Assembly (NCBI GenBank): GCA_030390025.1
Contig: CM059432.1
Coordinates: forward strand, 11,594,001-11,658,000
From: Squalus acanthias
Lineage: Eukaryota
Reading direction: 5' to 3'
DNA: 64,000 nucleotides
This document shows positions 926 through 59,612 of the stretch, one piece after another. The position numbers and the translations under genes were made by a program. The notes under the pieces are model-generated. The model saw only the letters and a program-made list of their open reading frames with translations, searched no databases and was not told the origin of the DNA. Within the stretch, counting starts at the first letter, position 1. Each line of letters starts with the position of its first letter.

Positions 926-1019
926 GCCTCGGCAGGGATTCCATCTGCTCCTGAGGCCTTGTTGTTGTTCAGTTGTCGGATGGTCTTTTCAACCTCATGC
1001 CGGGCTGGGGTTGTGCTGG

Positions 1020-2185
1020 TTATTTACTAGAATGGGGATGGGGGACTTCAGCTATGTGGAGAAGCTGGGGTTGTTCTCCTTAGAGCAGAGAAGGTTAAGA
1101 AGAGATTTGATAGAGGTTTTCAAAATCATGAATGGTTTTGATAGAGTAAATAAGGAAAAACTGTTTCCAGTGGCAAAAGGGTTGGTAACCAGAGGACACA
1201 GATTTAAGGTGATTGGCAAAAGAATCAGAGGCGACATGAGGTTCTGGACTCTCCGACCATCGGGTCATAATCTACGGATAACGGGTAAACCATTTAGGAC
1301 AGAAATGAGGAGGAATTTCTTCACCCAGAGAGTGGTGAACCTGTGGAATTCTCTACCACAGAAGGTAGTTGAGGCGAAGTCATTAAATATATTCAAGGAT
1401 GAGTTAGATATATTTCTTAAAGCTAAAGGTATCAAGGGATATGGGGAGAAGGCAGGTACAGGGTACTGAGTTTAGATGATCAGCCATGATCTCATCGAAT
1501 GGCGGAGCAGGCTCAAGGGGCCGAATGGCCTACTCCTGCTCCTATCTTCTATGTTTCTATGTTTCTATATTTTTTTACGCAGCGAGTTGCTGTGATCTGG
1601 AATGCACTGCCTGAAAGGGCGGTTTAGAATAATGAGAGTTGATCTCATTGAAATGTATAAGATTCTGAGGGGGATTGACAGGGTAGATGCTGAGAGATTG
1701 TTTCCCCAGCCTGGGGAGTCTAGAACCAGGGTCACAGTCTCAGAATAAGGGGTCGACCATTTAGGACAGAGATGAGGAGAAAGTTCTTCACTCAAAGGGT
1801 TGTGAATCTTTGGAATTCTCTACCCCAGAGGCGCTGTGGATGCTCAGTCGTTGAGTATATTCAAGACAGAGATTGATAAACTTTTGGGAACTAAGTGAAT
1901 TAAGGGATATGGGGATCGGGCGGGAAGGTGGAGTTGTGGTAGAAGATCAGTCATGATCTTCTTGAATGGCGGAGCAGGCTCGAGGGGCCGAGTGGCCTAC
2001 TCCTGCTACTATTTCTTACGTTCTTGTGTTCTAAAAGGGAATTGGATAAATACTTGAAGGAAAAAAAATGCAGGGCTATGGGGAACGAGCAGGGGAGTGG
2101 GACTAGTCGGATAGCTCTACCAAAGAGCTGGCACATTAATGATGGGCCGAATGGCCTCCTTCTGTCCTGTATCATTCTATGATGT
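1020..2185 (+). mobile_element. Nest of three CR1 (HER1-like) LINE 3' fragments
   Basis: LEQRRLRRDLIEVFKI and RRNFFTQRVVNLWNSLP C-terminal motifs. The host copy (1020-1240, ~1567-1622, ~2033-2185) is interrupted by two other CR1 ends, one with a (TTTCTATG)n tail. Confidence 0.85.
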
Positions 2186-2425
2186 AACCTTGGCCCAAAC
2201 CATGGCACTTCGAGCAATGCAGCACGTCCATCATAAGTGGCAGTTAAAGATCCCTTGGGAGTATTTGAAGCAGGATAAGGAGTTCTCCTGATGCCTTTGA
2301 TGAACTTTTCCCCCTCAATATCAACAAAAATAGGTCTCATCACTGAATGGAACCTTGCTGTGTGCAAAATGGCTGCCACATTCATCTACATAGCGACAGT
2401 GACAGTAATTCAAGATCCCAGGGTA

Positions 2426-2685
2426 CTATTTCGAAGAAGAGCAGGGGAAGTTATCCCCGGTCTCCTGGACAATATTTATCCCTCAAGCAACATCACCAAA
2501 ACAGATTATCTGGTCACTATCTCATTACTGTTTGTGGGAGCTTGCTGTGCGCAAATTGGCTGCCGCGTTTCCCACATTACAACAGTGACTACACTTCAAA
2601 AAAAGTACTTCATTGGCTGCAAAGCGCTTTGGGATGTCCTGAGGTTGTGAAAGGCGCTATAGGAATGCAAGTCTTTTCTTTCTTT
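2426..2685 (+). mobile_element. SacSINE1-like DeuSINE, 3' part
   Basis: ACTATTTCGAAGAAGAGCAGGGG..CCCCGG..GCTGTGCGCAAATTGGCTGCCGCGTTTCC..GCAAGTCTTTTCTTTC; matches about 12 other copies in the window. Confidence 0.8.
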
Positions 2686-3593
2686 AATCTCTGTGTTACT
2701 TTCCAAGATATCTATTGAGCTGTAAACTCAGATTAATAATATCTGTGGCCCTGAAAGGTTTAAAAACGAGTGATCCACCCACTCGCGAGGGTCCTCTCCA
2801 CTCTCGTGCTTGAAAAAAATTAGCTCTCGCCGCAACTGCTGATTCATCGGCTCATCTATCAGCGCTCAACTCCCCTCGTGCACTTTCCACATTCTATGGG
2901 TCTTTCATTTTGTTGAAGCGCAGTTATGACTGGGACTTGTTCCGTTCCTCTGGGACCTGGCTTGCCACCCGCATACAGCAAGGCTTGTTGAGCGAACTCT
3001 GGTGCAACAAGCCTATTTTTGTGAACCCCGAGTGTTTTGGCTGACTGAGATATTCCTGCCTTTTAAGTTTGTGTGGCGTTCACATGACCTCGCAGCACAG
3101 AGCGGCCTCTGTCCCAACCGTGTCAGCAGCCACTCACCAGACCAGCGATCAAATGGGCCAAAAAAAATTAATAAACGGGTCAAAAGTTGGAATAAGAAGC
3201 ACAGTCCGAATATGCAAAGCACATCCTGGGTCGATGCACTAAACTGTTCCCTTTTTTGTTTATAGTCAGAAAAAACCCTTGCTTTTCCTTTTGTCGTTTC
3301 CCATGGCGGAGGGAGGCTTCAGCGATACAGCAGCTTAGGAAGCTTAGAACAGTAAAACAATGCAGTGTGTTCTTTTTTTCCCCCACAATTTGCTGCTGTT
3401 ACGTCGCTGTCTTGGGGCACTGAGTGAAGCTTTTATATGGAGGCTGTGAACTCTAGCCATGGAGATGTGAATGTGCTGCTGTTTCCCTAAGGCAGTCAGC
3501 TGATTGCTTCAGACAGAGCGATCCCTCGGGGAGAGACGGCAGAGAGTCTCAGGCAGCAGATTGGCTTCAGACATTTGAAGCTTGCTGGAATGT

Positions 3594-5426: not shown

Positions 5427-6000
5427 TGATAGTGAGGAGGACTTTGCAGGGTCGACCTGGGCTGGCTGGGCCTTCGGCGTGTCCTGATTCGATGCCCAGG
5501 TCACAGTCGAGTGGTCCGTCCGGTTCGAATCTTGTTTTCCTTTCTAGCCGTTTAGTGCAACTGAGTGGCTCGCGAGGTCACGTCAGAGGGCAGTTCAGAG
5601 TCAACCACGTTGGCACGGGTCTGGAGTTACATATAGGCCAGACCGAGTAAGGACGAGCAGGTTTCCATCCCCAGTGGACATTAGTGAACCAGTTGTTTTT
5701 TTTTACAACAACCCGACAGCTTCAGCAGTCACTTTTACTGATACCAGCTTTTTATTTCAGGATGTCTTTTAACACTGAATTCAAGTTGTCAAACTGGCCT
5801 GGTGGGATTTGAACTCGTTCTCTGGTTATATTAGTCCAGGGCCATGAATTACTAGTCCAGCAACGTAACCACTAGGCTAGAGCACCGTTCCCATTCCTGA
5901 TCGCTGTCCACTGACTCCTGCTGGAATGCTTGTATGTGTGGACATTAATTGAGGACAGGATTGGGTTTGGTTTTGTTGCTCTTCATTGAAAATATCCTAT

Positions 6001-6682: not shown

Positions 6683-7455
6683 ACATTCTCATCCTTGTGT
6701 TCAAATCCCTCCCTGCCCTTGTCCCTCCCCATCTCCGTAACCTCCTCCAGCCCTACAACCCCCTGAGATCTCTGCACTCCTCCAATTCTGGCCTCTTGCA
6801 CATTGCCCCACCATTGGCGGCCGTGGCGTCAGCTGTCTATAAGGGGTACGGTAGCATAGTGGTTATGTTACTGGACTAGTAATCCAGAGGCCTGGACTAA
6901 TGATCGAGACGGGAGTTCAAATCCCACCACGGCAGCTGGGGAATTTAAATTCAGTTAATTGAATAAATCTGGAATAAAAAGCTAGGATCAGTAATGGTGA
7001 CCATGAAACTACCAGATTGTCGTAAAAACTCTTCTGGTTCACTAATGTCCTTTAGGGAAGGAAATCTGCCACCCTTACCCGGTCTGGCCTATATGTGACT
7101 CCAGACCCACAGCAATGTGGTTGACTCTTAACTGCCCTCTGAAATGGCCCAGCAAGCCACTCAGTTGTATTCAAGAAGGCGGCTCACCACCACCTTCTCG
7201 AGGGCAATTAGGGATGGGCAATAAATGCTGGCCTTGCCAGCGAGGTCCACATCCCGTGAATGAATTAAAAAAAAACCTAAGCTTGGGAATTCTCTCCCTA
7301 AACCTCTCAACCTCTCCTCCTTTAAGATGCTGCTTAAAACCTACCCCTTTGACCAAGCTTTTGGTCACCTGTCCCAACATCTCTTTATGTGGCTCGGTGT
7401 CAAACTTTGTCTGATAATCGCTCCTGTGAAGCGCCTTGGGACGTTTTACTACTAC
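6683..7455 (+). mobile_element. L2 LINE 3' end, interrupted by the SINE at 6845-7275
   Basis: ILILVFKSL..L.NLLQPYNP.RSL.SS, then WNSLP-like..LKTY.FDQAF and a TGTGAAGCGCCTTGGGACGTTTTACTAC tail. Confidence 0.75.
6845..7275 (+). mobile_element. Complete tRNA-derived SINE (MetaSINE-like body) sharing both ends with the family-B LINE
   Basis: A box TAGCATAGTGG 6852-6862 and B box GTTCAAATCC 6915-6924; body GTCCTTTAGGGAAGGAAATCTGCC..GTGACTCCAGACCCACAGCAATGTGG; tail AAGAAGGCGGCTCACCACCACCTTCTC..GGCAATAAATGCTGGCC matches the LINE end at 11960-12060. Confidence 0.88.
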
Positions 7456-11227: not shown

Positions 11228-12061
11228 TGGACGACGTTCAGGCTTGGGCTGATAAGTAGCAGATAACATTTGCGCCGCAGAAGTGCCAGGCAATGACTAT
11301 CTCCAACAAGCGAGAGTCTAACCACCTCCCCTTGACATTCAACGGCGTTACCATCGCCAAATCCCCCACCATGCGGGGACTGCTGCATCCTGGGGGGTCA
11401 CCATTAACCACAAACTTAACTGGACCAGCCACATAAATACCGTGGCAACAAGAGCAGGTCAGAGGCTGGGTATTCTGCGGCGAGTGTCTCACCTCCTGAC
11501 TCCCCAAAGCCTTTCCACCATCTACAAGGCACAAGTCAGGAGTGTGATGGAATATTCTCCACTTGCCTGGATGAGTGCAGCTCCAACAACACTCAAGAAG
11601 CTCGACACCATCCAGGACAAAGCAGCCCATTTGATTGGCACCCCATCCACCACCTTAAACATTTACTCCCTCCACCACCGGCGTACCGTGGCTGCAGTGT
11701 GTACCATCTACAAGATGCACTGCAGCAACTCGCCAAGGCTTCTTCGGCAGCACCTCCGAACCCCACGACCTCTTCCACCTAGAAGGACAAGGGCAGCAGG
11801 TGCATGGGAACACCACCACCTCCAAGTTCCCCTCCAAGTCACACACCATCCTGACTTAGAAGTATATCGTCGATCCTTCATTGTCACTGGGTCAAAATCC
11901 TGAACTCCCTCCCTAACAGCACTGTGGGAGTACCTTCACCACACGGACTGCAGCGGTTTAAGAAGGCGGCTCACCACCACCTTCTCAAGGACAATTAGGG
12001 ATGGGCAATAAATGCTGGCCTTGCCAGTGACGCCCACATCCCATAAACGAATTTAAAAAAA
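11228..12061 (+). mobile_element. Family-B LINE 3' fragment with complete 3' end
   Basis: LSTIYKAQVRSVMEYSPLAWMSAAPTTLKKLDTIQDKAA; ends FKKAAHHHLLK, short UTR and A-rich tail. Confidence 0.9.
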
Positions 12062-17961: not shown

Positions 17962-18495
17962 GATTTTATTCGTTTTATGGGATGTGGGCATCACTGGCAA
18001 GGCCAGCATTTATTGCCCATCCCTAATTGCCCTTGAGAAGGTGGTGGTGAGCCGCCTTCTTGAACCGCTGCAGTCCGTGTGGTGAAGGTGCTCCCACAGT
18101 GCTGTTAGGGAGGGAGTTCCAGGATTTTGACCCAGCGACGATGAAGGATCGGTGATATACTTCCAAGTCAGGATGGTGTGTGACTTGGATGGGAACTTGG
18201 AGGTGGCGGTGTTCCCATGTGCCTGCTGCCCTTGTCCTTCTAGGTGGAAGAGGTCGCGGGTTTGGGAGGTGCTGCCGAAGAAGCCTTGGCGAGTTGCTGC
18301 AGTGCATCTTGTAGATGGTACACACTGCAGCCACGGTATGCCGGTGGTGGAGGGAGTGAATGTTTAAGGTGGTGGATGGGGTGCCAATCAAGCGGGCTGC
18401 TTTGACCTGGATGGTGTCGAGCTTCTTGAGTGTTGTTAGAGCTGCACTCACCCAGGCAAGTGGAGAGTATTCCATCACACTCCTTACTTGTACCT
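17962..18495 (-). mobile_element. Family-B LINE 3' fragment
   Basis: ORF 18023-18478 MEYSPLAW..SWNSLPNS..FKKAAHHHLLKGN*, plus 3' UTR. Confidence 0.9.
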
Positions 18496-19210
18496 GGGAG
18501 AAGCACTACATTACGTTCATACAGCATGCACTGGCACGGTGGTAAGAAGGAGTATACGTGTGCGACACACATGGATTGCCAATGAAATTCTGTTCACACT
18601 AAAGCTGGGCGTGTAGACATTGTTTTTGGAATGGCCTGGAAGCTGCTTCACGGGGCTACATAAATGGGAGCTTTTGTGAGCTTTGCGCACAGAGAAAGTA
18701 AGGCTCTGTTTGTAAGGCAAAGTTGTGCATCAGGAAGCACAAAGCCACCATCCTTGAGATGCTAGCTGGCTTGTGTTGCAGGATGTCCCCCCCCGGGGGC
18801 CAGGTATGATCCAGATACCTGCAACATGCCAATGACGTGATCGCATATAACTCTGGTGACTACAGAGATTTCATTTAAAAACATAACATAAGAAATAGGA
18901 GCAGGAGTAGGCCATTCGGCCCCTCGAGCCTGCTCCGCCATTCAATGAGATCATGGCTGATCTTCGACCTCAACCCCGCTTTCCCGCCCGATCTCCATAT
19001 CAGGACATCCCAAAGCGCTTTACAGCCAATTAAGTACTTTTTGAAGAGTAGTCACTGTTGTAATGTAGGAAATGCAGCAGCCAATTTGCGCACAGCAAGG
19101 CCCCACAAACAGCAATGAGATAAATGACCAGATAATCTGTTTTTTTAGTGATGTAGGTTGAGGGGTAAATATTGGCCAGGACATGTTTATAAAAGAGCAG
19201 ATTTGCTAGT

Positions 19211-24695: not shown

Positions 24696-25156
24696 AGAAC
24701 AGCAGAGCTCATGTGCAGCAACATTAAACAGCCCTGTCGTTACAATGCTGAATGCTCGCAAGCTTAGAAATGAGCTTCACATATTTTGAGTTTCGTCAAT
24801 GAACAAAAATATTATTAAAGCATTATCAGAAATCAGCTGTATGCAGCATGACTCACCACTGAAATAATCAGTTTAATGCTGGAGGAAGCATTTCTTCAAA
24901 GCCAATCGGATTCAGTCACGCAGCCGCGTGTTTCTAAAGACATAGCCACCCACTCCAGAGATGAAAGTGTTGTTGTCAGCTGCACGTAACAGGAGCCAGA
25001 CTTCAGTGAGTGAGTCATTGACGCTGAATTATTGGACCATTGGAATTCTGATCGAACACAGAATTCAAAGATAGACGACCCCAAATGAAGAGGAAGTGAG
25101 ACGCAGATTATGCTTAAAAATAAAAGAAAATGGGTGATTTTTTTTTGTGCGTTCAG

Positions 25157-25563
25157 GTACGGTACCATAGTGGTTATGTCACTGGGCTCGTAATCCAGAG
25201 GCCTGGACTAATGATCCAGAGACGTGAGTTCAAATCCCACCACAGCAGCTGCTGGGGGAATTTAAATTTAGTTAATTAAATAAATCTGGAATTTAAAGCT
25301 AGTATCAGTAACGTTAACCATGAAACTACCAGATTGTCATTAAAAACCTATTGTCCTATGAGGAGAGATGGCCTAATATGTGACTCCAGACCCACAGCAA
25401 TGTGGTTGACTCTTAAACTGCCCCTCTGAAACGGCCCAAGCAAGCCACTCAGTTGTACAAGAAGGCAGCTCACCACCATCTTCTCGAGGGCAATTAGGGA
25501 TGGGCAATAAATGCTGTCCTTGCCAGCGACGCCCACATCCCAAGAACGAATAAAAAAAAAAAT
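25157..25563 (+). mobile_element. tRNA-derived SINE of the family-B type (copy 2)
   Basis: Same head, body and tail as 6845-7275; junction CTCAGTTGTA|CAAGAAGGCAGCTCACC. Confidence 0.88.
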
Positions 25564-32389: not shown

Positions 32390-33541
32390 CAAGGGGTGTC
32401 TTGCAGCTGAAGATGGTTGGGCCTAGGACGCTGCCCTGAGGAACTCTTGCAGCGATGTCCTGGGGCTGATTCCAGGTATGACTTCAGCCACTGGAGAGTT
32501 TCCCCCCCCGATTCCCATTGACTTCTGTTTTACTAGGGCTCCTTGGTGCCACACTCGGTCAAATGCTGCCTTGATGTCAAGGGCAGTCACTCTCACCTCA
32601 CCTCTGGAATTCAGCTCTTTTGTCCATGTTTGGACCAAGGCTGTAATGAGGTCTGGAGCCGAGTGGTCCTGGTGGACCCCAAACTGAGCATCGGTGAACA
32701 GGTTATTGGTGAGTAAGTGCCGCTTGATAGCACTGTCGATGACACCTTCCATCACTTTGCTGATGATTGAGAGTAGGCTTATATGACGGTAATTGGCCGG
32801 ATTGGATTTGTCCTGCTTTTTGTGGACAGGACATACCTGGGTGATTTTCCATATTATCGGGTAGATGCCAGTGTGGTACCTGTGCTGGAACAGCTTGGCT
32901 AGAGGTGCGGCTAGTTCTGGAGCACAAGTCTTCAGCACGACAGCCGGGATGTTGTCGGGACCCACAGCCTTTGCTGTATCCAGTGCGCTCAGCCATTTCT
33001 TGATATCAAGTGGAGAGAATCGAATTGGCTGGAGACTGTCTTCTGTGATGTTGGAGACCTCAGGAGGAGGCCAAGAAGGATCATCCACTCGGCCCTTCTG
33101 GCTGAAGGTATTGCTGGGCTCCACCATCATTGAGGAGGGGAATGTTAATGGAACCTCCTCCATCCGTTAGTTGTTTAATTGTCCACCACTATTTACAATT
33201 GGATGTGGCAGGATTGCGGAGCTTTGACCTGATTGCTTTGCTCTGTCTCTAGAATGCTGCTTCCGCTGTTTAGCATGCATGTAGTCCTGTGTTCTGGCTT
33301 CACCAGTTTGGCACCTGATTTTTAGGTACGCCTGGTGCTGCTCCTGGCATGCTCTTCTACACCCCTCACTGAACCAGGGTTGGCCATCTGGCTTGATGGT
33401 GATAGGGGAGTGAGGGATATGCCGGGCCATGAGGTTACAGATTGTGGTGGAATACAATTCTGCTGCTGCTGATGGTCCACAGCGCCTCGTGGATACCCAG
33501 TTTTGAGCTGCTAGATCTGTTCTAAATCTATCCCATTTAGC
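32390..33541 (-). mobile_element. Family-B LINE internal (linker + RT) fragment
   Basis: ORF 32423-33163: LKTCAPELAAPLAKLF..ANYRHISLLSIISKVMEG..ALDIKAAFDRVWHQG. Confidence 0.92.
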
Positions 33542-42756: not shown

Positions 42757-43672
42757 TAGAGGAACAAAGGGACCTTGGGAGAGCATGTCCACAGATCCCT
42801 GAAGGTAGCAGGCCAGATCGATAAGGTGGTTAAGAAGGCATACGGAATGCTTGTCTTTATTAGCCGTGGCATAGAATACAAGAGCAGGGTATCGCGATAA
42901 GCGATTAACCCACGCCCATTCAAGGTGATGCAGGCAGCACGCAAACTTGGTGCTGCCTGCTAATTTAAATGATAGTGGCGTGCAGCCCAGCGCTAAACGC
43001 GCTGCTGAGTGGTTGCACGCTCAGCAGCGGGCCCAGGTTCGTGCGAGGCTAGCACCAATTAAAGCCAGCCTGCACAGCTTAAAGGGGAGCTTCAACTGTA
43101 TAAAACACTAGTTAGGCCTCAGCTGGAGTACTGCGTGCAGCTCTGGTCACCACATTACAGGAAAGATGTGATTGCACGAGAGAGGGTACAGAGGAGATTT
43201 ACAAGGATGTTGCCGGGAGTAGAGAATCTTAGCTATGAGGAAAGACTGGATAGGCTGGGTCTGTTTTCCTGGGAACAGAGGAGGCTGAGGGGAGACCTTA
43301 TTGAGGTGTATAAAATTATGAGGGGCACAGATAAAGTGGATAGAAAGGACTTATTTCCCTTAGCAGAGGGGTCAAAAACCAGGGGGCACAGATTTAAAGT
43401 AATTGGTGGAAGGCTTAGAGGGGATTTGAGGGGAAATTTCTTCACCCAGAGGGTTGTGGGGGTCTGGAACTCACTGCCTGAAAGGGTGGTAGAGGCAGGA
43501 ACCCTAACCACATTGAAAAAGTACTTGGATGTGCACTTGGGATGCTGTAACCTGCAGGGCTACGGACCAAGAGCTGGGAAGTGGGATTAGGCTGGATAGC
43601 TCTTTGTTGGCCGGCGCCGACACGATGGGCCGAAATGGCCTCCTTCCGTGCTGTAACTTTCTATGATTCTAC
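42757..43672 (+). mobile_element. CR1 3' fragment carrying a ~200-bp inverted copy of adjacent Harbinger sequence (42891-43089)
   Basis: ORF 43135-43590 is the CR1 C-terminus; CR1 is split at GAATACAAGAGCAGGG|..|CTTCAACTGTATAAAAC. Confidence 0.88.
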
Positions 43673-44942: not shown

Positions 44943-47848
44943 CATCCCTAATTGCCCCTTGAGAAGGTGGTGGTGAGCCGCCGCCTTGAACCGCTGCAGT
45001 CGTGTGGTGAAGGTACTCCCACAGCGCTGTTAGGGAGGGAGTTCCAGGAATTTGACCCAGCGGCGATGAAGGATCGGCCGATATACTTCTAAGTCAGGAT
45101 GGTGCGTGTCTTGGAGGGGTTCTTGGAGGTGGTGGTGTTCCCATGCGCCGGCTGCCCTTGTCCTTCTAGGTGGAAGAGGTCGCGGGTTTGGGAGGTGCTG
45201 CTGAAGAAGCCTTGGCTGCACCTTGTAGATGGTACACACTGCAGCCACAGTATGCCGGTGGTGGAGGGAGTCATAGAATCATAGAAGATAGGAGCAGAGT
45301 AGGCCATTCGGCCCCTCTAGCCTGCTCCGCCATTCAATGCGATCATGGCTGATCATCCAAATTCAGTACCCTGTCCCTGCTTTCTCCCCATATCCCTTGA
45401 TCCCTTTAGCCTTAAGAAATATATCCAACTCCTTCTTGAATCTATTTAATTAATTGAATGTTTAAGGTGGTGGATGGGGTGCCAGTCAAGCGGGCTGCTT
45501 TGTCCTGGATGGTGTCAAGCTTCTTGAGTGTTGTTGGAGCTGCACTCATCCAGGCAAGTGGAGAGTATTCCATCACACTCCTTACTTGTGCCTTGTAGAT
45601 GGTGGAAAGGCTTTGGGGAGTCAGGAGGTGAGACACTCGCAGCAGAATACCTTGCCTCTGACCTGCTCTTGTTGCCGCAGTATTTATGTGGCTGGTCCAG
45701 TTAAGTTTCTGGTTAATGGTGACCCCCAGGATGTTGATAGTGGGGGATTCGGCGATGGTAATGCCATTGAATGTCAAGGGGAGGTGGTTAGACTCTCGCT
45801 TGTTGGAGATAGTCATTGCCTGGCACTTCTGTGGCGCGAATGTTACCTGCCACTTATCAGCCCAAGCCTGAATGTCGTCCAGGTCTTGTTGCATGCGGGC
45901 ATGGACTGCTTCATTATCTGTGGAGTTGCGAATGGCGCTGAACACTGTGCAGTCATCAGCGAACATCCCCATTTCTGACCTTATGTTAGAGGGAAGTTCA
46001 TTGATGAAGCAGCTGAAGATGGTTGGGCCTAGGTCACTGCCTTGAGGAACTCCTGCAACGATGTCCTGGGGCTGTGATGATTGACCTTCAACCACCAACC
46101 ATCTCCTTTGTGCTCGGTATGACTCCAGCCAGTGGAGTGTTTTCCCCCTGATTCCCATTGACTTAAGTTTTACGAGGACTCCTTGATGCCAGACTCGGTC
46201 AAATGCTGCCTTGATGTCAAGGGCAGTCACTCTCACCTCACCTCTGGAATTCAGCTCCTTTGTCCATGTTTGGACCAAGGCTGTAATGAGGTCGGGAGAC
46301 CGAGTGGTCTTGTCGGAACCCAAACTGGGCATCAGTGAGCAGGTGCCGCTTGATAGCACTGTCGATGACACCTTCCGTCACTTTGCTGATGATTGAGAGT
46401 AGACTGATGGGGCGGTAATTGGCTGGGTTGGATTTGTCCTGCTTTTTATGGACAGGACATACCTGGGCAGTTTTCCACATTGTCGGATAGATGCCAGTGT
46501 TGTAGCTGTACTGGAACAGCTTGGCTAGAGGCGCGGCTAGTTCTGGAGCACAAGTCTTCAGCACGATAGCCGGGATGTTGTCGGGGCTCATAGCCTTTGC
46601 TGTATCCAGTGCGCTCAGCCGTTTCTTGATATCACGTGGAGTGAATCGAATTGGCTGAAGAATGGCTTCTGTGATGGTGGGGACCTCGGGAGTAGGCCGA
46701 TATGGATCATCCACTCAGCACTTCTGGCTGAGATTGGTTGCAAACACTTCAGCCTTGTCTTTTGCACTCACGTGCTGGGCTCCACCATCATTGAGGATGG
46801 GGATATTCTTGAAGCCTCCTCCTCCCGTTGGATGTTTAATAGTCCACCACCATTCACAACTGGATGTGGCAGGACTGCAGAGCTTTGATCTGATCTGTTG
46901 ATTGTGGGATCGCTTAGCCCTGTCTATAGCATGCTGCTTCCGCTTTTTAGCATGCATGTAGTCCTGTGTTGCAGCTTCCCCAGGTTGGCACCTTATTTTT
47001 AGGTACGCCTGGTGCTGCTCCTGGCATGCTCTTCTACACTCGTTGTTGAACCAGGGTTGGTCGTAATGGTAGAGTGAGGGATATGCCGGGCCATGAGGTT
47101 ACAGATTGTGGTGGAATACAATTCTGCTGCTGATGACCCACAGCGCCTCATGGATGCCCAGTTTTGAGCTGCTAGATCTGTTCTGAATCTATCCCATTTA
47201 GCACGGTGGTAGTGCCACACAACACGATAGAGGGTGTTCTCAGTGTGAAGACGGGACTTCGTCTCTGCAATGACTGTGGGTGGTCACTGCTACCATGCAC
47301 AGGTAGATTGGTCAGGACGAGGTCAAGTAGGTTTTTCCCTCTTGTTGGTTCTCTCACCACCTGTCGCAGGCCCAGACTGGCAGTTATGTCCTTCAGGACT
47401 CGGCCAGCTCGTGATGCTACCGAGCTGCTCTTGGTGATGGACATTGACGTCCTCTACCCAGAGTACATTCTGTGCCCTTGCTACTCTCGGTGCTTCTTCC
47501 AAGTGGTGTTCAACATGGAGGAGCACTGATTCATCAGCTGAGGGAGGGCGGGAGGTGGTAATCAGCAGGCGGTTTCCTTGCCCATGCTTGACCTGAAGCC
47601 ATGAGACTTCATGGGGTCCAGAGTCAATGTTGAGGACTCCCAGGGCCACTCCTTCCCGACTGTATACCACTGTGCCACCACCCTGGTGGGTCTGTCTTGC
47701 CGGTGGGACTAGCTTTTTATTCCAGATTTATTTAATTAACTGAATTTAAATTCCCAAGCTGCCGTGGTGGGATTTGAACTCACGCCTCTGGATCATTAGT
47801 CCAGGTCTCTGGATTACTAGCCCAGTGACATTACCACTACGCTACCGT
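44943..47848 (-). mobile_element. Family-B LINE, near full length: tRNA-derived head (47710-47848) joined to a frameshifted EN-RT ORF; nested CR1 end at ~45271-45452
   Basis: A box TAGCGTAGTGG 47834-47844 and B box GTTCAAATCC 47770-47779; EN motifs SHRQDRPT..VVYSREG..RPPSAD..DVNVHH, NLLDLVLTN, SDH; RT motifs NYRPISLL, LDIKAAFDRV, GVPQGS.LGP, MFADD. Confidence 0.92.
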
Positions 47849-47859
47849 TCCCGTATAAT

Positions 47860-48785
47860 TAAGAAGTTTGCAGATGATACATAAATTGGTTGTGTGGTTG
47901 ATAATGAAGAAGAAAGCTGCAGACTGCAGGAAGATATCAATGGACTGGTCAGGTGGGCGGAACAGTGGCAAATGGAATTCAATCTGGAGAAGTGTGAGGT
48001 AATGTATTTGGGGAGGGCTAACAAGGCAAGGGAATACACAATAAATGGTAGGACACTGAGAAGTGCAGAAGATCAGAGGGACCTTGGAGTGCATGTCCAC
48101 AGATCCCTGAAGGTAGCAGGACAGGTAGATAAGGTGGTTTGGAAGGCATATGGGATACTTGCCTTTATTAGCCGAGGCATAGAATATAAGAGCAGGGACT
48201 TTATGCTTGAACTGTATAAAACACTAGTTAGGCCGCAGCTAGAATACTGCGTGCAGTTCTGGTCACCACATTACAGGAAGGATATGATTGCACTAGAGGG
48301 GGTGCAGAGGAGATTTACGAGGATGTTGCCTGGGCTGGGGAATTTTAGCTATGAGGAAAGATTGGATAGGCTGGGGTTCTTTTCTTTGGAACAGAGGAGG
48401 CTGAGGGGAGACCTAATTGAGGTGTTTAAAATTATGAGGGACCTAGATAGAGTGGATATGGACCTATTTCCCTTAGCAGAAGGGTCAATAACCAGGGGGC
48501 ATAGATTTAAAGTAATTGGTCAGAAGTTTAGAGGGGATTTGAGGAGAAATGTTTTCACCCAGAGGGTGGTGGGGTCTGGAATTCACTGTCTGAAAGGGTG
48601 GTAGAGGCAGAAACCCTCGTCACATTTAAAAAGTACTTGGATATGCACTTGAAGTGCCGTAACCTACAGGGCTACAGACCAAGTGCTGGAACGTGGGATT
48701 AGGGTGGATAGCTCTTTGTCGGCCGGCACGGACAAGATGGGCCGAATGGCCTCCTTCTGTGCTGTAAATTTCTATGATTCTATGA
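47860..48785 (+). mobile_element. CR1 LINE 3' fragment (from FADD to tail)
   Basis: KFADD at ~47863; ORF 47894-48604; (TTCTATGA)n tail. Confidence 0.92.
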
Positions 48786-49211: not shown

Positions 49212-52060
49212 TCAACTCCATTCACCGGCCCTATCGCCATATCCCTTGATGCCCTTACTAGTCAGAAATCTATCGACTTCTGTTTTGAATATACCCAATG
49301 ACTGAGCCTCCACAACCCTCTGGGGTAGAGAATTCCAAAGATTCACCACCCTCTGTGTGAAGAAATTTCTTCTCATCTCAGTCCTGAATGGCCTATCCTT
49401 TATCTTGAGGCTGTGGCCCCTGGTTCTAGACTCCCCAGCTATGAGAAACATTCTCCCAGCATCCATCCTATCAAGCCCTGTAATAATTTTGTATGCTTCA
49501 ATGAGATCCCCTCTCATTCTTCTGAATTCAAGAGAATACAGGCCTAGTTTACTCAATCTCTTCTCATACGACAGTCCCGTCATCCCAGGAATCAATCTCG
49601 TGAACCTTCGTTGCACTCCCTCCATGGCAAGTATATCCTTCCTTAGGTAAGGAGACCAAAATTGTACACAGTACTCCAGGTGTGGTCTCACCAAGGCCCT
49701 ATATAATTGGAGTAAGACTTCTTTACTCCTGTACTCAAATCCTCTTGTAATGAAGGCCAGCACACCATTTGCCTTCCTAATGGCTTGCTGCACCTGCACA
49801 TTCACTTTCAGTGACTCATGTATAAGGACACCCAGGTCCCTTTGAGCATCTGCATTCCCCAATCTTTCACCATTTAGGAAATACTCTGCCTTTCTGTTTT
49901 TTCTACCAAAGTGGATAACTTCACATTTATCCACATTATATTCCATCTGCCATGTTCTCGCCCACTCCCTGAGCCTGTCGAGATCCCCTTGAAGCCTCTT
50001 CACATCCTCTTCACAACTAACACTGCCACCTAGCTTTGTATCATCAGCAAATTTGGAAATGTTACATTTAGTCCCCTCATCCAAATCATTGATATAGATT
50101 GTGAATAGCTGGGGCCCAAGCACCGATCCTTGCAGTACCCCACTAGTTACAGCCTGCCATCCTGAAAAAGACCCGTTTATCCCTACTCTTTGTTTTCTGT
50201 CTGTTAACCAATTCTCAATCCATGCTAGTATATTACCCCCAATTCCATGTGCCCTAATTTTGTTCACCAACCTCTTGTGTGGGACCTTATCGAAGGCCTT
50301 CTGAAAATTCAGATACACCACATCTACCAGTTCCCCCTTGTCTACTCCACTAGTTACATCCTCAAAGAACTCCAATAGGATTGTCAAACAGGATTTCCCT
50401 TTCATAAATCCATGTTGACTCTGCCCAATCTTACTATTAGTTTCTAAGTGCCCAGTTATTGCATCCTTTATAATAGATTCCAGCATTTTTCCAACTACTG
50501 ATGTGAGGCTAACAGGTCTGTAGTTCCCTGTTTTCTCTCTCCCTCCTTTCTCAAATAGCGGGGTTACATTTGCTATCCTCCAATCTGCAGGAACCGTTCC
50601 AGAATCTATAGAATTTTGGAAGATAACAACCAATGCGTCCACTATTCCAATGGCCACCTCTTTCAAAACCCTAGGATGTAGGTCATCCGGTCCTTGGGAT
50701 TTATCGACTTTTAGTCCCATTAATTTTGCTAGTACTGTTGTTTTACTAATAATAATTTCTTTAAGTTCCTCATTCTCATCGCACCCTTGGTTTTCTCGTA
50801 TTTCTGGGAGTTTTTTTGTGTCTTCCTCCGTGAAGACAGAAACAAGGTATTTATTTAATTTCTCTGCCATTTTCTCATTCCCCATTATAAATTCTCCCGT
50901 CTCTGACTGTAAAGGACCTACATTTACCTTCGCCAGTCTTTTCCTTTTCACATACCTATAGAAGCTTTTACAATCCGTTTTTATATTTTTCGCTAGATAG
51001 TGCTCATATTCCATTTTCCCTTTCTTTATCAATTTCTTGGTACCCCTTTGCTGATTTCTAAAAAGATCCCAATCCTCAGGCTGACCGCTTTTTCTGGCAA
51101 CTTTATAAGCTTCCTCCTTTGACTTAATACTAGCTTTAATTTCTTTTGTTAGCCATGGTTGGATCACTTTTCCTTTTGGGTTTTTATGCCCTAGAGGAAT
51201 ATATGTTTGTTGCAAATTATGCATTATTTCCTTGAGTGTTAGCCATTGTATGTCCACCTTCATACCTTTTAGTGTAGTCTCCCAATCTACCATGGCCAAC
51301 TTGTCCCTCATACCCTTGTAGTTTCCTCTGTTTAGATTGAAGACCTTAGTTTCAGATTGGACTACATCACTCTCAAACTGAATGTAAAATTCAATCATAT
51401 TATGGTCACTTGTCCCTAAAGGCCCCTTTACCACAAGATTATTGATTAGCCCTTTCTTATTACACAGTACCAGATCCAGAATAGCCTGTTCCCTGGTTGG
51501 TTCCTCCACATACTGATCCAGGAAACCATCTCGCATGCAGTCCAAGAATTCGTCCTCCACACCATTAGTGGTAATTTGATTTGCCCAGTCAATATGTAGA
51601 TTAAAGTCCCCCATGATTACCGTATTGCCCTTGTTACATGCACTTCTAATCTCTTGATTGATACTGTGCCCTACATTACCACTGCTGTTTGGTGGCCTAT
51701 ACACAACTCCCACCAATGTTTTCCGCCCTTTGCTGTTTCTTAGCTCCACCCAAACTGATTTCAGTTCTACATCACGATCTGCCGAGCCAAGATCTTTTAT
51801 CTCTACCATACCGATCTCAACCCTTATTAACAGCGCTACGCCACCTCCTTTTCCTTTTTGTCTGTCCTTCCTAAATGTTGAGTACCCTGGAACATTCAGT
51901 TCCCAGCTTTGGTTACCCTGCAACCATGTCTCTGTAATGGCAATTACATCCTACCCATTTACTTCTATTAGTGCCATTAATTCATGCATCTTGTTGCGAA
52001 TGCTACGTGCATTTAGATAAAGTGCCTTCAACTTTGCCTGTTTAATATTTTTCTGCACTT
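49212..52060 (-). pseudogene. CR1 ORF2 (APE endonuclease + reverse transcriptase); 903-aa open stretch preceded by one in-frame stop
   Basis: LKALYLNARSIRNK..NG*DVIAITETWL (TAG at 51951-51953); MGDFN, SDHN, NYRPVSLTS, VYLNFQKAFD (expected catalytic D reads N), QGSVLGP, FADD. Confidence 0.95.
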
Positions 52061-52189
52061 TGACCCTCTTTACTGTTGGCCTTTGTTTCTGCTCCCTACT
52101 AGTTTTGCTGACTACTTTTCTAACTTGCACTTCCAGCTTTGTTTCTCTTCGCTCTGGGCCCACACTTAGGTTCCCAGCCCCCTGACAAA

Positions 52190-53120
52190 CTAGTTTAAAT
52201 CCTTCCCAACAGCACTAGCAAACCCCCCTGCGAGGATGTTGGTCCAGCTTCTGCCGAGGTGTAACCCGTCCAGCTTGTACAGGTCCCACCTTCCCCAGAA
52301 TCGGTCCCAATGCCTCAGGAATTTAAATCCCTCCCTCCTACACCATCTGGTCTATTCTCCTATTTCTGCTCTCGCTAGCACGTGAAACTGGGAGTAATCC
52401 TGAGATTACTACCTTTGAGGTCCTGCTTTTTAATTTATTTCCTAGCTCCCTATATTCTGCTTGCACGACCTCGTCCCTCTTTCTACCTATGTCGTTGGTA
52501 CCGATATGGACCACGGCCTCTTGCTGTTCACCCTCCCCCTTCAGAATGTCCTGCAGCCGCTTACTGACATCCCTGACCCTGGCACCAGGGAGGCAATAAA
52601 CCATCCTGGAGCCACGCCTGTGGCCACAGAAACGTCTATCTGTTCCCCTTACGATAGAATCCCCTATCACTATTGCTCTCCCACTCATTTTCCTCCCCTC
52701 CTGTGTAGCTGAGCCACTCGTAGTGCCACGGACTTGACTCTTGCTGCATTCCCCTGAGAATGCATCTCCCCCAGCAGTATCCAAAACGGAAAATCTGTTG
52801 GAGAGGGAGATGGACCCAGGGGACTCCTGCACTACCTTCCTAGTTATTTTACTCTGTCTGGCGGTCACCCATTCCCTGTCTGCCTGTGTACTCTTTACCT
52901 GTGGTGTGACCACCTCATTAAACATGCTATCCACGAAGATCTCAGCCTCGTGGATGCTCCACAGTGACTCCAGCCGCAGCTCCAGCCCTGAAACGCGGAT
53001 TTCAAGTAGCTGCAGCTGGAGACACTTCCTGCACATGTGTTCACCCTGGACACCGAAAGTGTCCCTGACTTCCCACATAGCACAGGAAGAGCACTCCACG
53101 CTGCCGAGCTGCCTTGCCAT
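52190..53120 (-). pseudogene. CR1 ORF1 (Zn finger/leucine zipper + SGNH esterase-like), frameshifted near the C-terminus
   Basis: CSSC..CRKC, VIGDSIVR, CLPGA, VHIGTND. Confidence 0.92.
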
Positions 53121-54372
53121 GTCCTACCCTTAATTTACACCCTTTCCTTCCTCTAAATTAAAGAATCTTAAATACACTAGGGACCTTACTTCACTTTACA
53201 CACTACTTACTCTAAACTAGAGACCTTACTTTTACTTTAACGACTGGACTGTAGAAATACTCACCAGGTCCTACTTACCAATCAGCTCCTTCCCTTGTGC
53301 CGACGTCACTTTAAATCTCTGATGTCACTTCTGAATGTTGCCTGTTGAGGTCCGCTCTCGCTGCTGTTCCCAATAGTTTATATTGCCTCTCCTCATTCTC
53401 CCTACCAAAATGTATAATTTTGCAGTTTTCTCGTTAAATTTCATCTGCCACGTGTCCGCCCATTCACCTGCCTGTCTATGTCCTCTTGAAGTCTATCACT
53501 ATCCTCCTCACTGTTCACTATACTTCCAAGTTTTGTGTCATCTGCAAATTTTGAAATTGTGCCCTGTACACCCAAGTCCAAGCCCTTAATATATATCAAG
53601 AAAAGATGTCTTCCTTTTCTGTTCTTTATATCTCTCCCAGTCCCCTGGATCTACATTATTTTTTGCAGTCTTGTGTGCTCTTTCCTTTAGTTTTATATTA
53701 TCTCTCATCTCTTTTGTCAACCATGCCTGTTTTATTTGGTAAGTAGAGCTCTTGCCCCTTAGGGGTATATATTGGATCTGTATTAAGCTAAATTATTTTC
53801 AAACAACTCCCACTGTTCATCTACAATTTTACCCGAGAACACTTTTGACCAGTTTGCTGTCGTCTGTCTCTGTCTCGACCCGTTAAAGTTAGCCGTACCA
53901 AAATCTAGAATCTTAGTAACTGTGTTACGTTTCTCCTTTTCAAACCTAGCATTGAATTCGATCATGTCATGATCACTATTCGATAAATGTTCCCTTACTG
54001 TTGGATTATTAACTATGTCTGGCTCATTACTCGTTACTAAATTTAGTAGGGCCTGCCCTGTTGTTGGTTCCAGAGCATATTGCTCCAGAAAATTATCTTG
54101 AATGCATTCAAGAAATTCACTACCTTTCTGACTTGAGCTACTTTGCTCTTACCAATTTATATGAAAATTAAAGCCTCCCATTAAAACAACTCCGCTTTTG
54201 CTACAACCTCTCCAATCTCTGAATTAATACATTCTGCCACTTCATTGCTGCTATCAGGAGGCCTGTAGACAACTCCCATTACAGTTTTTAAGTCCTCTCT
54301 TATTCCTCAATTTTAAACATAGATTCTCCGCTGATTGCTTTCCCTTATACATATCCTGTCTTAGTTGTAATA

Positions 54373-59060: not shown

Positions 59061-59612
59061 ACATAGAAACATAGAAGATAGGAGTAGGAGTAGGCCATTC
59101 GGCCCCTCGAGCCTGCTCCGCCATTCAATGAGATCATGGCTGATCATCCATATTCAGTACCCTGTCCCTGCCTTTTCCCCATATCCCTTGATCCCTTTAG
59201 CCTTAAGAAATATATCTAACTCCTTCTTGAATATATTTAATGAATTGGCCTCCACTGCCTTCTGTGGTAGAGAATTCCACAGGTTCACCACTCTCTGGGT
59301 GAAGAAATTCCTCCTCATCTCAGTCCTAAATGGCTTACCCCTTATCTTTAGACTGTGACCCCTGGTTCTGGACTCCCTGACCATCGGGAACATCCTTCCT
59401 GCATCTAGTCTGTCTAGTCCTGTTAGAATTTTATAAGTTTCAATGAGATCCCCTCTCATTCTTCTAAACTCCAGCGAGTATAAGCCCAATCGACCCAATC
59501 TCTCCTCATACGTCATTCCTGCCATCCCAGGTATCAGCCTGGTGAATCTTCGCTGCACTCCCTCCATGGCAAGAACATCCTTCCTCAGATAAGGCGACCA
59601 AAACTGCACACA
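59061..59612 (-). mobile_element. CR1 3' fragment
   Basis: CVQFWSPYLRKDVLAMEGVQRRFTRL..GIKGYGEKAGTGY; (TTTCTATG)n tail. Confidence 0.92.

What the first reader, a model, noticed from the sequence alone, without database searches (positions are those of the whole stretch)
44943..47848. Family-B LINE sense strand lacks Pol III terminators (no TTTT in ~2.9 kb)
Seen (counted by eye): the sense (minus) strand of this near-full-length copy has no run of four T's and only about four TTT in ~2.6 kb of coding sequence, while the antisense strand has about ten T4+ runs. The other family-B fragments (11228-12061, 17962-18495, 32390-33541) also lack sense TTTT. The neighbouring CR1 has several sense TTTT runs (plus-strand AAAA at ~49658, 50165, 50304, 50665, 51060, 51386). 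Established: vertebrate Pol III terminates at T4 or longer. Inference: the coding sequence has been purged of terminators so that Pol III, starting at the tRNA head (47834-47844, 47770-47779), can transcribe the whole ~3.3-kb element. That would be a protein-coding Pol III transcript, presumably needing cap-independent translation; the conserved body just upstream of the ATG is a candidate element for this.
Basis: partly seen in the sequence, partly recalled or inferred. Interest (0 to 1): 0.85.

Follow-up and report, generated by a model that had tools for sequence, protein, structure and literature searches.

The report
LINE carrying a tRNA promoter head
A family of 3.2-kb protein-coding jumping genes in this shark-type genome begins with the same tRNA-like promoter head as its small non-coding partner element and is unusually poor in the T-runs that stop RNA polymerase III, so it may be copied by that polymerase, which would be very unusual for a protein-coding element.

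Summary
The sense (minus) strand of 44943-47852 has no T4+ run and 10 A4+ runs, and the neighbouring CR1 has T4+ runs at the six places named.

The window copy is a dead, deleted copy. It lacks 444 bp between the head and mid-endonuclease and about 65 nt at the 3' end, and it carries a CR1 insert and frameshifts.

The family feature is real. 18 of 51 genomic copies sampled with internal LINE queries begin at base 1-7 of the tRNA-derived head, with unrelated flanks, and no other 5' end was found.

A full-length element is about 3.2 kb: head (A and B boxes), SINE body, one endonuclease+RT ORF, and a 3' tail shared with the SINE.

Absence of T4 alone is weak evidence (P 0.04-0.17 against codon or dinucleotide shuffles). 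T3+ runs, however, are 2-3 times rarer than synonymous shuffles predict (P 0.001-0.007). This holds for T only, and two other LINE families of this genome do not show it.

No polymerase data could be obtained. Pol III transcription is plausible (about 0.5) but unproven.

The parts
47758..47852 (-). tRNA-derived head, the 5' terminus of the element. A box TAGCGTAGTGG at 47834-47844, B box GTTCAAATCC at 47770-47779.
   Evidence: sequence; in the full-length copy L042 the same stretch matches Rfam tRNA at 22.1 bits, below the gathering score of 29 (E 0.25, model positions 7-64). ARAGORN calls no tRNA gene in the window; 24 head-bearing copies start at the same G with unrelated upstream DNA.
47708..47757 (-). 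First 50 nt of the SINE-type body (linker with ATTAAA and two AATAAA). Family positions 96-145.
   Evidence: It is shared with the SINE copies at 6844 and 25156 and with LINE 5' ends elsewhere.
47707..47709 (-). Internal deletion junction. Family positions 146-589 (444 bp: rest of the SINE body, the ATG, the endonuclease N-terminus) are missing, with a 2-nt overlap at the joint.
   Evidence: window 47852-47708 = ref 1-145; 47709-45455 = ref 590-2845; of the 39 other scored head matches, none continues across this joint.
45457..47707 (-). Decayed ORF: C-terminal part of the endonuclease and the reverse transcriptase, with at least 4 frame changes.
   Evidence: Pfam PF14529 and PF00078 on the best-preserved copy L047.
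45272..45456 (-). Foreign insert: 185-bp 3' end of a CR1 element.
   Evidence: 91-94% identical to CR1 tails at 59062-59247 and 1382-1561; tblastn with CR1 ORF2 residues 888-909.
44943..45271 (-). End of the ORF (stop TAG 44948-44950) and the start of the 3' tail shared with the SINE (44943-44991). The last ~65 nt of the family tail and the A-tail are missing.
11228..12061 (+). 5'-truncated copy of the same LINE family with a complete 3' tail (GAATTTAAAAAAA).
17964..18501 (-). 5'-truncated copy of the same LINE family (3' end).
32403..33541 (-). Older internal fragment of the same family, 81% identical to the window copy and 85-88% to other copies.
6844..7275 (+). Partner SINE: head + body + LINE 3' tail. 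It equals the LINE with positions ~325-3120 left out.
25156..25563 (+). Second copy of the partner SINE.
49212..53123 (-). Comparator: CR1 element with an open 912-aa ORF2 and a 261-aa ORF1. It has sense T4+ runs.

Best explanation
The window holds a dead, internally deleted copy of an abundant CR1-superfamily LINE of about 3.2 kb. From 5' to 3', the full-length form consists of:
1. the tRNA-derived head (A and B boxes) and the body of its partner SINE;
2. one ORF of about 946 codons (AP endonuclease + reverse transcriptase);
3. a ~65-nt 3' UTR whose sequence, with the last ~45 nt of the ORF, is also the SINE's tail.

Shown:
- This whole unit was reverse-transcribed and inserted many times, and its RNA began at the first base of the tRNA-like head.
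- The family's sense strand is specifically depleted of T-runs.

Inferred:
- The template RNA is made by RNA polymerase III, started by the head's internal promoter as for the SINE. The scarcity of T-runs lets the polymerase reach the 3' tail.
- A T1-T4 run before the A-tail, with AATAAA about 45 nt upstream, may act as terminator and polyadenylation signal, as in T+ SINEs.
- The protein frame has no in-frame AUG near its start, so translation would be unconventional. The protein could also come from other transcripts and act in trans on the shared tail.
- The SINE is the internally deleted form of this same unit.
For: Head as 5' terminus:
- 11 of 29 copies found with an endonuclease-region query, 4 of 16 found with an RT query and 3 of 6 new copies found with a mid-ORF query start at family position 1-7. 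The rest are 5'-truncated at scattered points.
- 24 head-bearing copies, including the window's, begin at the same G, 18 of them with GGGAA. Upstream DNA is unrelated.
- A pile-up of starts at position ~550 has unrelated upstream DNA, so it is not an alternative 5' end.
- The A box matches TRGCNNAGTGG at 11 of 11 positions and starts at +9. The B box is GTTCAAATCC (the consensus motifs are recalled).

T-runs:
- 34 of 51 copies have no sense T4+. No internal site has T4+ in more than 4 of 45 copies. A4+ runs number 5-19 per copy.
- ORF of L047: T3+ is 4 observed against 10.7 under synonymous shuffles (P 0.001). L042: 5 against 11.5 (P 0.001). L051: 8 against 13.7 (P 0.007). A, C and G runs are as expected.
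- rho(TT) is 0.73-0.80 against rho(AA) of 0.93. TTT/TTC is 3/15, while the other T/C-ending codon pairs are 34% T-ending.

Controls from the same genome:
- CR1 ORF2 has 6 T4+ and 30 T3+ in 2739 nt.
- Four further CR1 pieces have rho(TT) of 1.09-1.19.
- Another endonuclease+RT LINE (L057; Pfam) with T = 0.208 has 9 T4+ and 38 T3+ in 3918 nt.
- None of these is below its shuffle expectation.

3' end:
- 18 tails end in GAAT followed by one T (8), two (4), three (2) or four (4), then A(n).
- Genome-wide exact 20-mers: T1A7 4150, T2A6 1433, T3A5 1251, T4A4 926. The reversed control patterns give 0.

ORF start:
- The ATG at position ~357 is out of frame with the endonuclease frame in 18 of 21 scorable copies (14 with the same spacing of 92). 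It is in frame in 2 and shifted by an insertion in 1.
- 16 of 21 have no in-frame ATG upstream. Open stretches of 235-236 codons contain no Met.
Against: - No data on the polymerase, the cap or the 5' end of the RNA were obtained.
- T4 absence by itself is within chance once low T and low TT are granted: P 0.04-0.15 under codon shuffles and 0.13-0.17 under dinucleotide shuffles.
- All copies descend from one family, so the T-run signal is a single evolutionary sample. Only two other LINE families served as controls.
- The head is below Rfam's tRNA threshold and ARAGORN does not call it.
- Most tails (8 of 18; 4150 of 7760 exact 20-mers) have a single T, so they carry no terminator of their own.
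- A T4 variant at position 1538 occurs in 4 of 45 copies. It may be a small subfamily that spread despite the run.
- Canonical poly(A) hexamers sit at 117, 121 and 132 and near the 3' end. The 3' ones would also suit a Pol II mRNA.
- No intact ORF was seen. The longest open frame in an uninterrupted copy is 815 of ~946 codons, among the copies scored.
- Natural Pol III transcripts of 3 kb are, to my recollection, unknown.
Confidence: 0.5

Rival explanations
1. The head-bearing RNA is made by RNA polymerase II from an internal promoter lying in the captured SINE head or body, as in other LINEs that start at their own +1. The head was captured once from a SINE RNA by template switching and is kept because it carries or tolerates that promoter. 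The T-run poverty reflects the family's amino-acid and codon preferences, not termination.
For: T4 absence alone is not significant against composition-preserving nulls. The family is GC3-rich (0.57), has few Phe codons (2.2%) and prefers C-ending codons in general (66% C in the other T/C pairs). AATAAA and ATTAAA lie near the 3' end before an A-tail. The printed view is that non-LTR elements are Pol II transcripts (passage of PMC10886601; discussion of PMC5786205).
Against: A Pol II start that coincides to the base with the tRNA +1 in 18 of 24 copies would be a coincidence. Three poly(A) hexamers at positions 117-132 would threaten a Pol II mRNA. T3+ is depleted beyond what codon usage explains, for T only and on the sense strand only. 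A GC3-rich control LINE (GC3 0.79, T 0.208) shows no depletion. The coding frame has no AUG.
Confidence: 0.3
2. The 5' end is made by processing, not by initiation. The element is co-transcribed with host genes, and the tRNA-like head recruits RNase P, which cuts at tRNA +1. This would be the counterpart of the 5' self-cleaving ribozymes of R2, RTE and L1Tc.
For: The 5' end is precise at the first base of the tRNA-like part. Several LINE clades are known to define their 5' end by a ribozyme (discussion of PMC5786205).
Against: The head does not fold into a cloverleaf. Its minimum-energy fold has no acceptor stem and is no more stable than shuffles (z -0.71). Rfam aligns only model positions 7-64, which excludes the acceptor stem. 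This model gives no reason for T-run depletion.
Confidence: 0.07
3. Nothing special is present. A SINE merely lies beside, or was hit by, a 5'-truncated LINE in this window, and the missing T4 runs are chance.
For: In the window itself the head abuts mid-endonuclease sequence, and none of the 39 other scored head matches crosses that joint.
Against: In other copies the same head lies at a fixed place, 590 nt upstream of the homologous point, and is joined through the same body and 5' ORF sequence. 18 of 51 copies reach it. The window joint is a private 444-bp deletion.
Confidence: 0.02

Closest known systems
HE1 SINE and HER1 LINE of sharks and rays (V-SINE with a CR1-like partner; Ogiwara et al. 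1999)
   Same: A tRNA-derived SINE of elasmobranchs shares its 3' tail with a CR1-like LINE. The table in PMC3747384 lists HE1 as a V-SINE of sharks and rays with a tRNA head and partner HER1. Here the SINE and the LINE share about 110 nt of tail.
   Different: Identity with HE1/HER1 is not tested: no reference sequence was available and the 1999 paper is not held. What I know of that work concerns the shared 3' end. Here the LINE also carries the SINE's head and body as its own 5' end.
Bipartite non-autonomous LINEs and SINE bodies derived from LINE 5' regions (Kojima 2018, PMC5786205; abstract and discussion read)
   Same: The SINE equals the 5' part plus the 3' part of the LINE, as if made by internal deletion.
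   Different: That survey found such 5' contributions only for the RTE and Vingi clades. It treats LINEs as Pol II units to which a small-RNA head is added only in the SINE. Here the autonomous CR1-type element itself carries the head.
T+ SINEs (B2, Dip, Ves): AATAAA, Pol III terminator and A-tail at the 3' end, with polyadenylated Pol III transcripts (PMC8466645, start of abstract seen in the listing; Borodulina & Kramerov 2008, seen only as a reference)
   Same: AATAAA lies ~45 nt before the end, and a short T-run stands directly before the A-tail in part of the copies.
   Different: Those are mammalian, non-coding and mobilised by L1. Here only about 12% of exact-match tails have T4, and no function of the signals was tested.
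LINEs with a 5' self-cleaving ribozyme (R2, RTE, L1Tc and others; cited in the discussion of PMC5786205)
   Same: A structured, non-coding RNA module at the exact 5' end of a LINE implies an uncapped RNA and unconventional translation.
   Different: That module is a ribozyme acting on co-transcripts. Here it is a Pol III promoter-like tRNA relic with no predicted cloverleaf.
Template-switch chimeras of LINE cDNA with small RNAs (U6/L1, tRNA/L1)
   Same: A small-RNA sequence is joined to the 5' side of a LINE sequence. This is probably how the head was first acquired.
   Different: Those are one-off, dead-end insertions with varying joints. Here one fixed architecture was propagated as a family.
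Cassandra TRIMs (5S rRNA sequence with Pol III promoter and terminator in the LTRs; passage of PMC10886601)
   Same: A retrotransposon uses a captured small-RNA gene promoter for its own transcription.
   Different: Cassandra is a non-autonomous, non-coding plant LTR element.

Membership tests
Autonomous non-LTR retrotransposon (LINE), CR1/L2-type | ORF with AP endonuclease followed by reverse transcriptase | tested here: met
   PF14529 (E 4e-11) and PF00078 (E 4e-40) on the 815-aa open frame of L047; colinear with the window's CR1 ORF2 over 844 columns, 25% identity, E 4e-74.
Autonomous non-LTR retrotransposon (LINE), CR1/L2-type | Many dispersed copies with variable 5' truncation and a common 3' end | tested here: met
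   5' starts are scattered from position 1 to 1714; 16 LINE tails end at the same point before an A-run; thousands of first-look candidates.
Autonomous non-LTR retrotransposon (LINE), CR1/L2-type | Clade assignment by RT phylogeny against reference elements | not testable with these tools
   No reference LINE library (Repbase or Dfam) was on hand. Only similarity to the neighbouring CR1 was measured.
Autonomous non-LTR retrotransposon (LINE), CR1/L2-type | Transcription by RNA polymerase II (printed view: PMC10886601 passage) | not testable with these tools
   Only assembled contigs of uncertain kind were available.
tRNA-derived SINE (SINE2) | 5' head derived from tRNA with A and B boxes | tested here: met
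   (Rfam tRNA 22.1 bits, below the gathering score; both box motifs present).
tRNA-derived SINE (SINE2) | 3' tail taken from a partner LINE | tested here: met
tRNA-derived SINE (SINE2) | Short (under about 600 bp) and non-coding | tested here: not met
   The full-length unit is ~3.2 kb and encodes endonuclease + RT. The 370-430-bp forms at 6844 and 25156 do meet this feature.
V-SINE superfamily / HE1 | Central conserved V-domain | not testable with these tools
   No V-domain sequence was available. PMC6887750 (passages) prints none. The resemblance is recalled only.
RNA polymerase III type 2 gene | Internal A and B boxes at tRNA-like positions | tested here: met
   The A box is at +9 to +19 and the B box near +74 to +83 of the element. 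The consensus motifs are recalled.
RNA polymerase III type 2 gene | No T4+ run between the start and the intended end | tested here: met
   34 of 51 copies have none, and no internal site is shared by more than 4 of 45. Statistical weight is limited.
RNA polymerase III type 2 gene | T4+ terminator at the 3' end | tested here: inconclusive
   T4 stands directly before the A-tail in 4 of 18 tails and in 926 of 7760 exact 20-mers. Most tails have T1.
RNA polymerase III type 2 gene | Occupancy by Pol III, TFIIIC and TFIIIB; alpha-amanitin-resistant transcription | not testable with these tools
   No such data were reachable.
One-off template-switch chimera (U6/L1 type) | Joint differs from copy to copy; no propagation of the chimera | tested here: not met
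   The same head-body-ORF arrangement is present in 18 of 51 sampled copies. Only the window's own 444-bp deletion is private.

The most novel reading that the evidence does not exclude
This is a vertebrate autonomous LINE that replicates as a Pol III transcription unit. A tRNA-derived internal promoter starts a ~3.2-kb protein-coding RNA whose sequence has been kept free of oligo-T terminators. The RNA ends at a short T-run beside a poly(A) signal and is translated without cap or AUG. Its partner SINE, probably the elasmobranch V-SINE, is simply the internally deleted form. If so, the line between SINE and LINE disappears for this family, and it gives a natural case of a protein-coding Pol III gene.
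Probability: 0.4. Interest if true: 0.9.

Novelty: new variant of a known kind. Interest (0 to 1): 0.72.

Why it matters
LINEs must carry their promoter inside the transcript, and the printed view is that they use Pol II while their SINE parasites use Pol III. Here an autonomous LINE has the SINE's Pol III head as its own first base in every full-length copy seen, together with a T-specific, sense-strand-specific lack of oligo-T. This makes three questions directly testable:
- Can Pol III make a kilobase-long coding RNA in vivo?
- How would such an uncapped RNA, with no AUG in frame, be translated?
- Do SINE heads and bodies arise from, or get captured by, their LINE partners?

If Pol II turns out to be the polymerase, the family still shows that a LINE can adopt a whole SINE 5' module as its 5' UTR, and that the SINE and LINE here are deletion variants of one unit.

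Tried and rejected
- RNA evidence. The run search listed no holder on record as RNA. 17 rows are guessed RNA and all are kept as assembled contigs. Contigs of four runs from four organisms were laid on a full-length copy. They cover the family and show SINE-form joints (skips of ~2,810-2,880 nt from the body to the tail), but they give no start, strand or polymerase.
- Alternative 5' end. The pile-up of 5' starts at position ~550 (5 of 29 copies) has unrelated upstream DNA.
- Older head-less subfamily. The 81%-identical fragment at 32403-33541 finds only ordinary family copies at 85-88% identity, so no separate lineage was found for a before-and-after comparison.
- Programmed -1 frameshift from the out-of-frame ATG. 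I saw no X_XXY_YYZ slippery site in the 150-nt overlap when reading the sequences printed. This was by eye, with no tool.
- LINE-specific versus SINE-specific head variants. Only 2 SINE-tail copies were in hand, and 3 LINE-linked heads (L017, L022, L037) carry the 'SINE-type' bases, so no conclusion.
- More control LINE families. The RT-family search returned mostly this family and one other. Several fetched loci turned out to be this family interrupted by CR1, or more copies of the same other LINE.
- Target-site duplications. None was evident by eye at four full-length copies.
- Papers not held: Ogiwara 1999, Gunnery & Mathews 1995, Borodulina & Kramerov 2008.
- Precedent in print. Searches for a LINE with a tRNA head or Pol III transcription found none. 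The library holds open-access papers only, and Repbase reports are not in it.
- Earlier notes of this scan. Searches returned nothing on this family.
Full report
OBSERVATION. The counts are right. In 44943-47848 the sense (minus) strand has no run of four or more T, and the antisense strand has ten. Sense T is 0.199. The sense strand has seven T3+ runs: one in the head linker, four in LINE coding sequence and two inside a foreign insert. The three other fragments of the family in the window also lack sense T4+ (with orientation). The neighbouring CR1 has sense T4+ runs at exactly the six places named. The A box (47834-47844, TAGCGTAGTGG) and the B box (47770-47779, GTTCAAATCC) are as stated.

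THE WINDOW COPY. It is not near-full-length.
- The head and the first 50 nt of SINE-type body (47852-47708) are joined directly to the middle of the endonuclease domain. Against full-length copies, family positions 146-589 are missing, with a 2-nt overlap at the joint.
- A 185-bp CR1 tail is inserted at 45272-45456.
- The frame changes at least four times.
- The element stops at 44943, just after its stop codon (TAG 44948-44950), so the last ~65 nt of the tail and the A-tail are absent.
- Of the 39 other scored genomic matches to the head, none continues across the window's joint.
- On its 5' side the copy abuts a 5'-truncated CR1 in the opposite orientation. No CR1 continuation lies beyond its 3' side, so the flanks say nothing about how it arose.

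THE FAMILY. I expected the head to be a neighbouring SINE. It is not.
- Head position. A 308-nt query from the endonuclease region gave 29 other copies. In 11 of them the same head lies 318-454 bp upstream of the query's start, and in 3 more it lies further off because of insertions.
- Full-length copies. I mapped all copies on one full-length copy (L042:1019-4265, the 'ref'). Copies starting at ref 1-7 numbered 11 of these 29, 4 of 16 chosen by an RT-protein search for long open frames, and 3 of 6 new copies found with a mid-ORF query. That is 18 of 51. Three more start inside the head, and the rest are truncated at scattered points.
- A single 5' terminus. 24 head-bearing copies, including the window's and seven found with the head query, begin at the same G, 18 of them with GGGAA. 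The DNA upstream is unrelated. A cluster of starts near ref 550 also has unrelated upstream DNA, so I found no alternative 5' region.
- Head. It is a tRNA relic. Rfam's tRNA model aligns D, anticodon and T arms at 22.1 bits, under the gathering score of 29. ARAGORN calls nothing. The predicted fold has no acceptor stem and is no more stable than shuffles.
- ORF. Behind the head come about 230 nt of body shared with the SINE, and a stop codon at ref ~322-325. An open frame then runs to TAG at ref ~3163. It has PF14529 and PF00078 domains and is colinear with CR1 ORF2 at 25% identity.
- Tail. The last ~45 nt of the ORF and the ~65-nt 3' UTR are also the tail of the SINE copies at 6844-7275 and 25156-25563. 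These SINEs therefore equal the LINE with ref ~325-3120 left out.
- State of the copies. They differ from one another by roughly 5-14%. No intact ORF was seen. The longest open frame in an uninterrupted copy is 815 codons. Longer ones (971 and 920 aa) are CR1 insertions read through.

T-RUN STATISTICS. Across 51 copies, 34 have no sense T4+, and A4+ runs number 5-19 per copy. No internal position has T4+ in more than 4 of 45 copies. That site (ref 1538) is a G-to-T change in CGTTT. The seven runs in L018 lie in a foreign insertion. The family as it spread therefore had no internal T4.

Is that more than chance?
- For the ORF, synonymous-codon shuffles expect 1.8-2.6 T4+ (P of none 0.04-0.15), codon permutation expects 1.6-2.9 and dinucleotide shuffles 1.0-1.3. 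For a whole element, P of none is 0.009-0.017 under mononucleotide and 0.13-0.17 under dinucleotide shuffles.
- T3+ runs are 4, 5 and 8 in three copies, against 10.7, 11.5 and 13.7 under synonymous shuffles (P 0.001, 0.001, 0.007). A, C and G runs fit their expectations.
- rho(TT) is 0.73-0.80 against 0.93 for AA.
- TTT/TTC is 3/15, while the other T/C-ending codon pairs are 34% T-ending.
- Phe is 2.2% of codons (and the L047 counts).
- The three copies are not independent. They are three readings of one family.

Controls from the same genome show none of this.
- The window's CR1 ORF2 has 6 T4+ and 30 T3+ in 2739 nt, with rho(TT) 1.04.
- Four further CR1 pieces have rho(TT) 1.09-1.19.
- A different endonuclease+RT+zf-RVT LINE (Pfam) with nearly the same T content (0.208) and higher GC3 (0.79) has 9 T4+ and 38 T3+ in 3918 nt.

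Only two families could be compared.

THE TWO ENDS OF THE CODING RNA.
- 3' end. The 18 tails in hand end in ...CCCATAAACGAAT followed by no, one, two or three further T and then an A-run. One T occurs in 8, two in 4, three in 2 and four in 4. Genome-wide exact 20-mers give 4150, 1433, 1251 and 926 for T1 to T4, with 0 for the reversed control patterns. This is far flatter than single mutations from T1 would give. AATAAA lies ~45 nt upstream. It resembles the AATAAA-terminator-A-tail arrangement of T+ SINEs, whose Pol III transcripts are polyadenylated (PMC8466645, start of abstract in the listing). It could also mean that transcripts end within a T-run. Neither was tested.
- 5' end of the ORF. 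The only ATG near the start (ref ~357) is out of frame with the endonuclease frame in 18 of 21 copies that could be scored, 14 of them with the identical spacing of 92 nt. It is in frame in 2 and shifted by an insertion in 1. 16 of 21 have no in-frame ATG upstream. Open stretches of 235-236 codons contain no Met. The protein must therefore start unconventionally, whichever polymerase makes the RNA.
- 5' UTR. It holds three poly(A) hexamers at ref 117-132.

MECHANISM.
- Shown: an RNA of about 3.2 kb that began at the first base of the tRNA-like head and ended at the shared tail was reverse-transcribed and inserted many times. This family's sense strand avoids T-runs in a way that codon usage, base composition and the behaviour of two other LINE families do not explain.
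- Inferred: Pol III, placed by the A and B boxes as on the SINE, starts that RNA, and T-run avoidance lets it reach the tail. I put this at about 0.5.
- Source of the protein: it need not come from the same molecule. Since it mobilises the SINE through the shared tail, it can act in trans.
- Main rival (0.3): a Pol II internal promoter within the captured module, with the T-run pattern a by-product of this family's composition. Against it stand the base-exact coincidence of the start with tRNA +1, the early poly(A) hexamers and the T-specific junction avoidance.
- Processing of co-transcripts by RNase P at the tRNA-like head (0.07): this would explain the precise end, but not the T-runs, and the head shows no cloverleaf.
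- Chance juxtaposition: excluded for the family.

COMPARISON WITH WHAT IS KNOWN.
- The pair looks like the elasmobranch HE1 V-SINE and its CR1-like partner HER1 (table of PMC3747384). I could not test identity, and the 1999 paper is not held.
- Kojima's survey (PMC5786205, abstract and discussion read) found LINE 5' regions in SINE bodies only for RTE and Vingi. It treats LINEs and bipartite LINEs as Pol II units and says SINEs cannot encode a protein.
- A 2024 paper states that non-LTR elements are Pol II transcripts and SINEs are Pol III transcripts (PMC10886601, passage).
- That Pol III transcripts can serve as mRNA and can be polyadenylated rests on titles I saw only in a reference list and on recall.
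- Seven literature searches and three look-ups in this scan's notes gave no LINE with a small-RNA head. The paper library is open-access only.

VERDICT. It is a new variant of a known kind, an autonomous LINE that carries its SINE partner's Pol III head and body as its own 5' end. Interest 0.72.

Noticed in passing
L012:1261 and homologous sites in 21 copies (family position ~357); absent from the window copy: The endonuclease-RT frame has no in-frame AUG near its start. The nearby ATG opens a separate ~50-codon frame that overlaps it, offset by one base.
   Followed up: partly
3' ends of 18 copies (e.g. window 12040-12061, 7262-7275; L041, L047, L048, L054) and genome-wide 20-mers: The element ends in GAAT plus 0-3 further T before the A-tail. 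Exact-match counts are 4150, 1433, 1251 and 926 for T1 to T4, a flat distribution that simple mutation from T1 would not give.
   Followed up: partly
L019, L024, L031, L033, L025 (family position ~548-558): Five of 29 copies are 5'-truncated within 10 nt of each other, just after AATGTC, with unrelated upstream DNA. This looks like a truncation hotspot.
   Followed up: partly
L059, L060, L061: Copies of this LINE are interrupted by CR1 insertions in the same orientation and frame. This gives long chimeric open frames (971, 920 and 805 aa) that mimic intact genes in an ORF-length screen.
   Followed up: no
L002 and L008 (both on contig C1615, ~181 kb apart): A 390-nt 5' fragment of the LINE with its flanks occurs twice at 97% identity over 2.1 kb. 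This is a segmental duplication, not two insertions.
   Followed up: partly
L042:1302-1343 joined to 4132-4183 in contigs of runs X1, X4, X8, X11: SINE-form joints (body joined to tail, skipping ~2,810-2,880 nt) are present in contigs of four different organisms. The joint positions and filler letters vary slightly, which suggests several SINE subfamilies or repeated deletion events.
   Followed up: no
window 5743-5892 (-): A third, much older head-like copy (75% identical to the LINE head) lies beside the SINE at 6844.
   Followed up: no
window 47858-48702 (+) and 43090-43590 (+): Two further 5'-truncated CR1 fragments flank the finding. The first abuts the LINE head in the opposite orientation.
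   Followed up: partly
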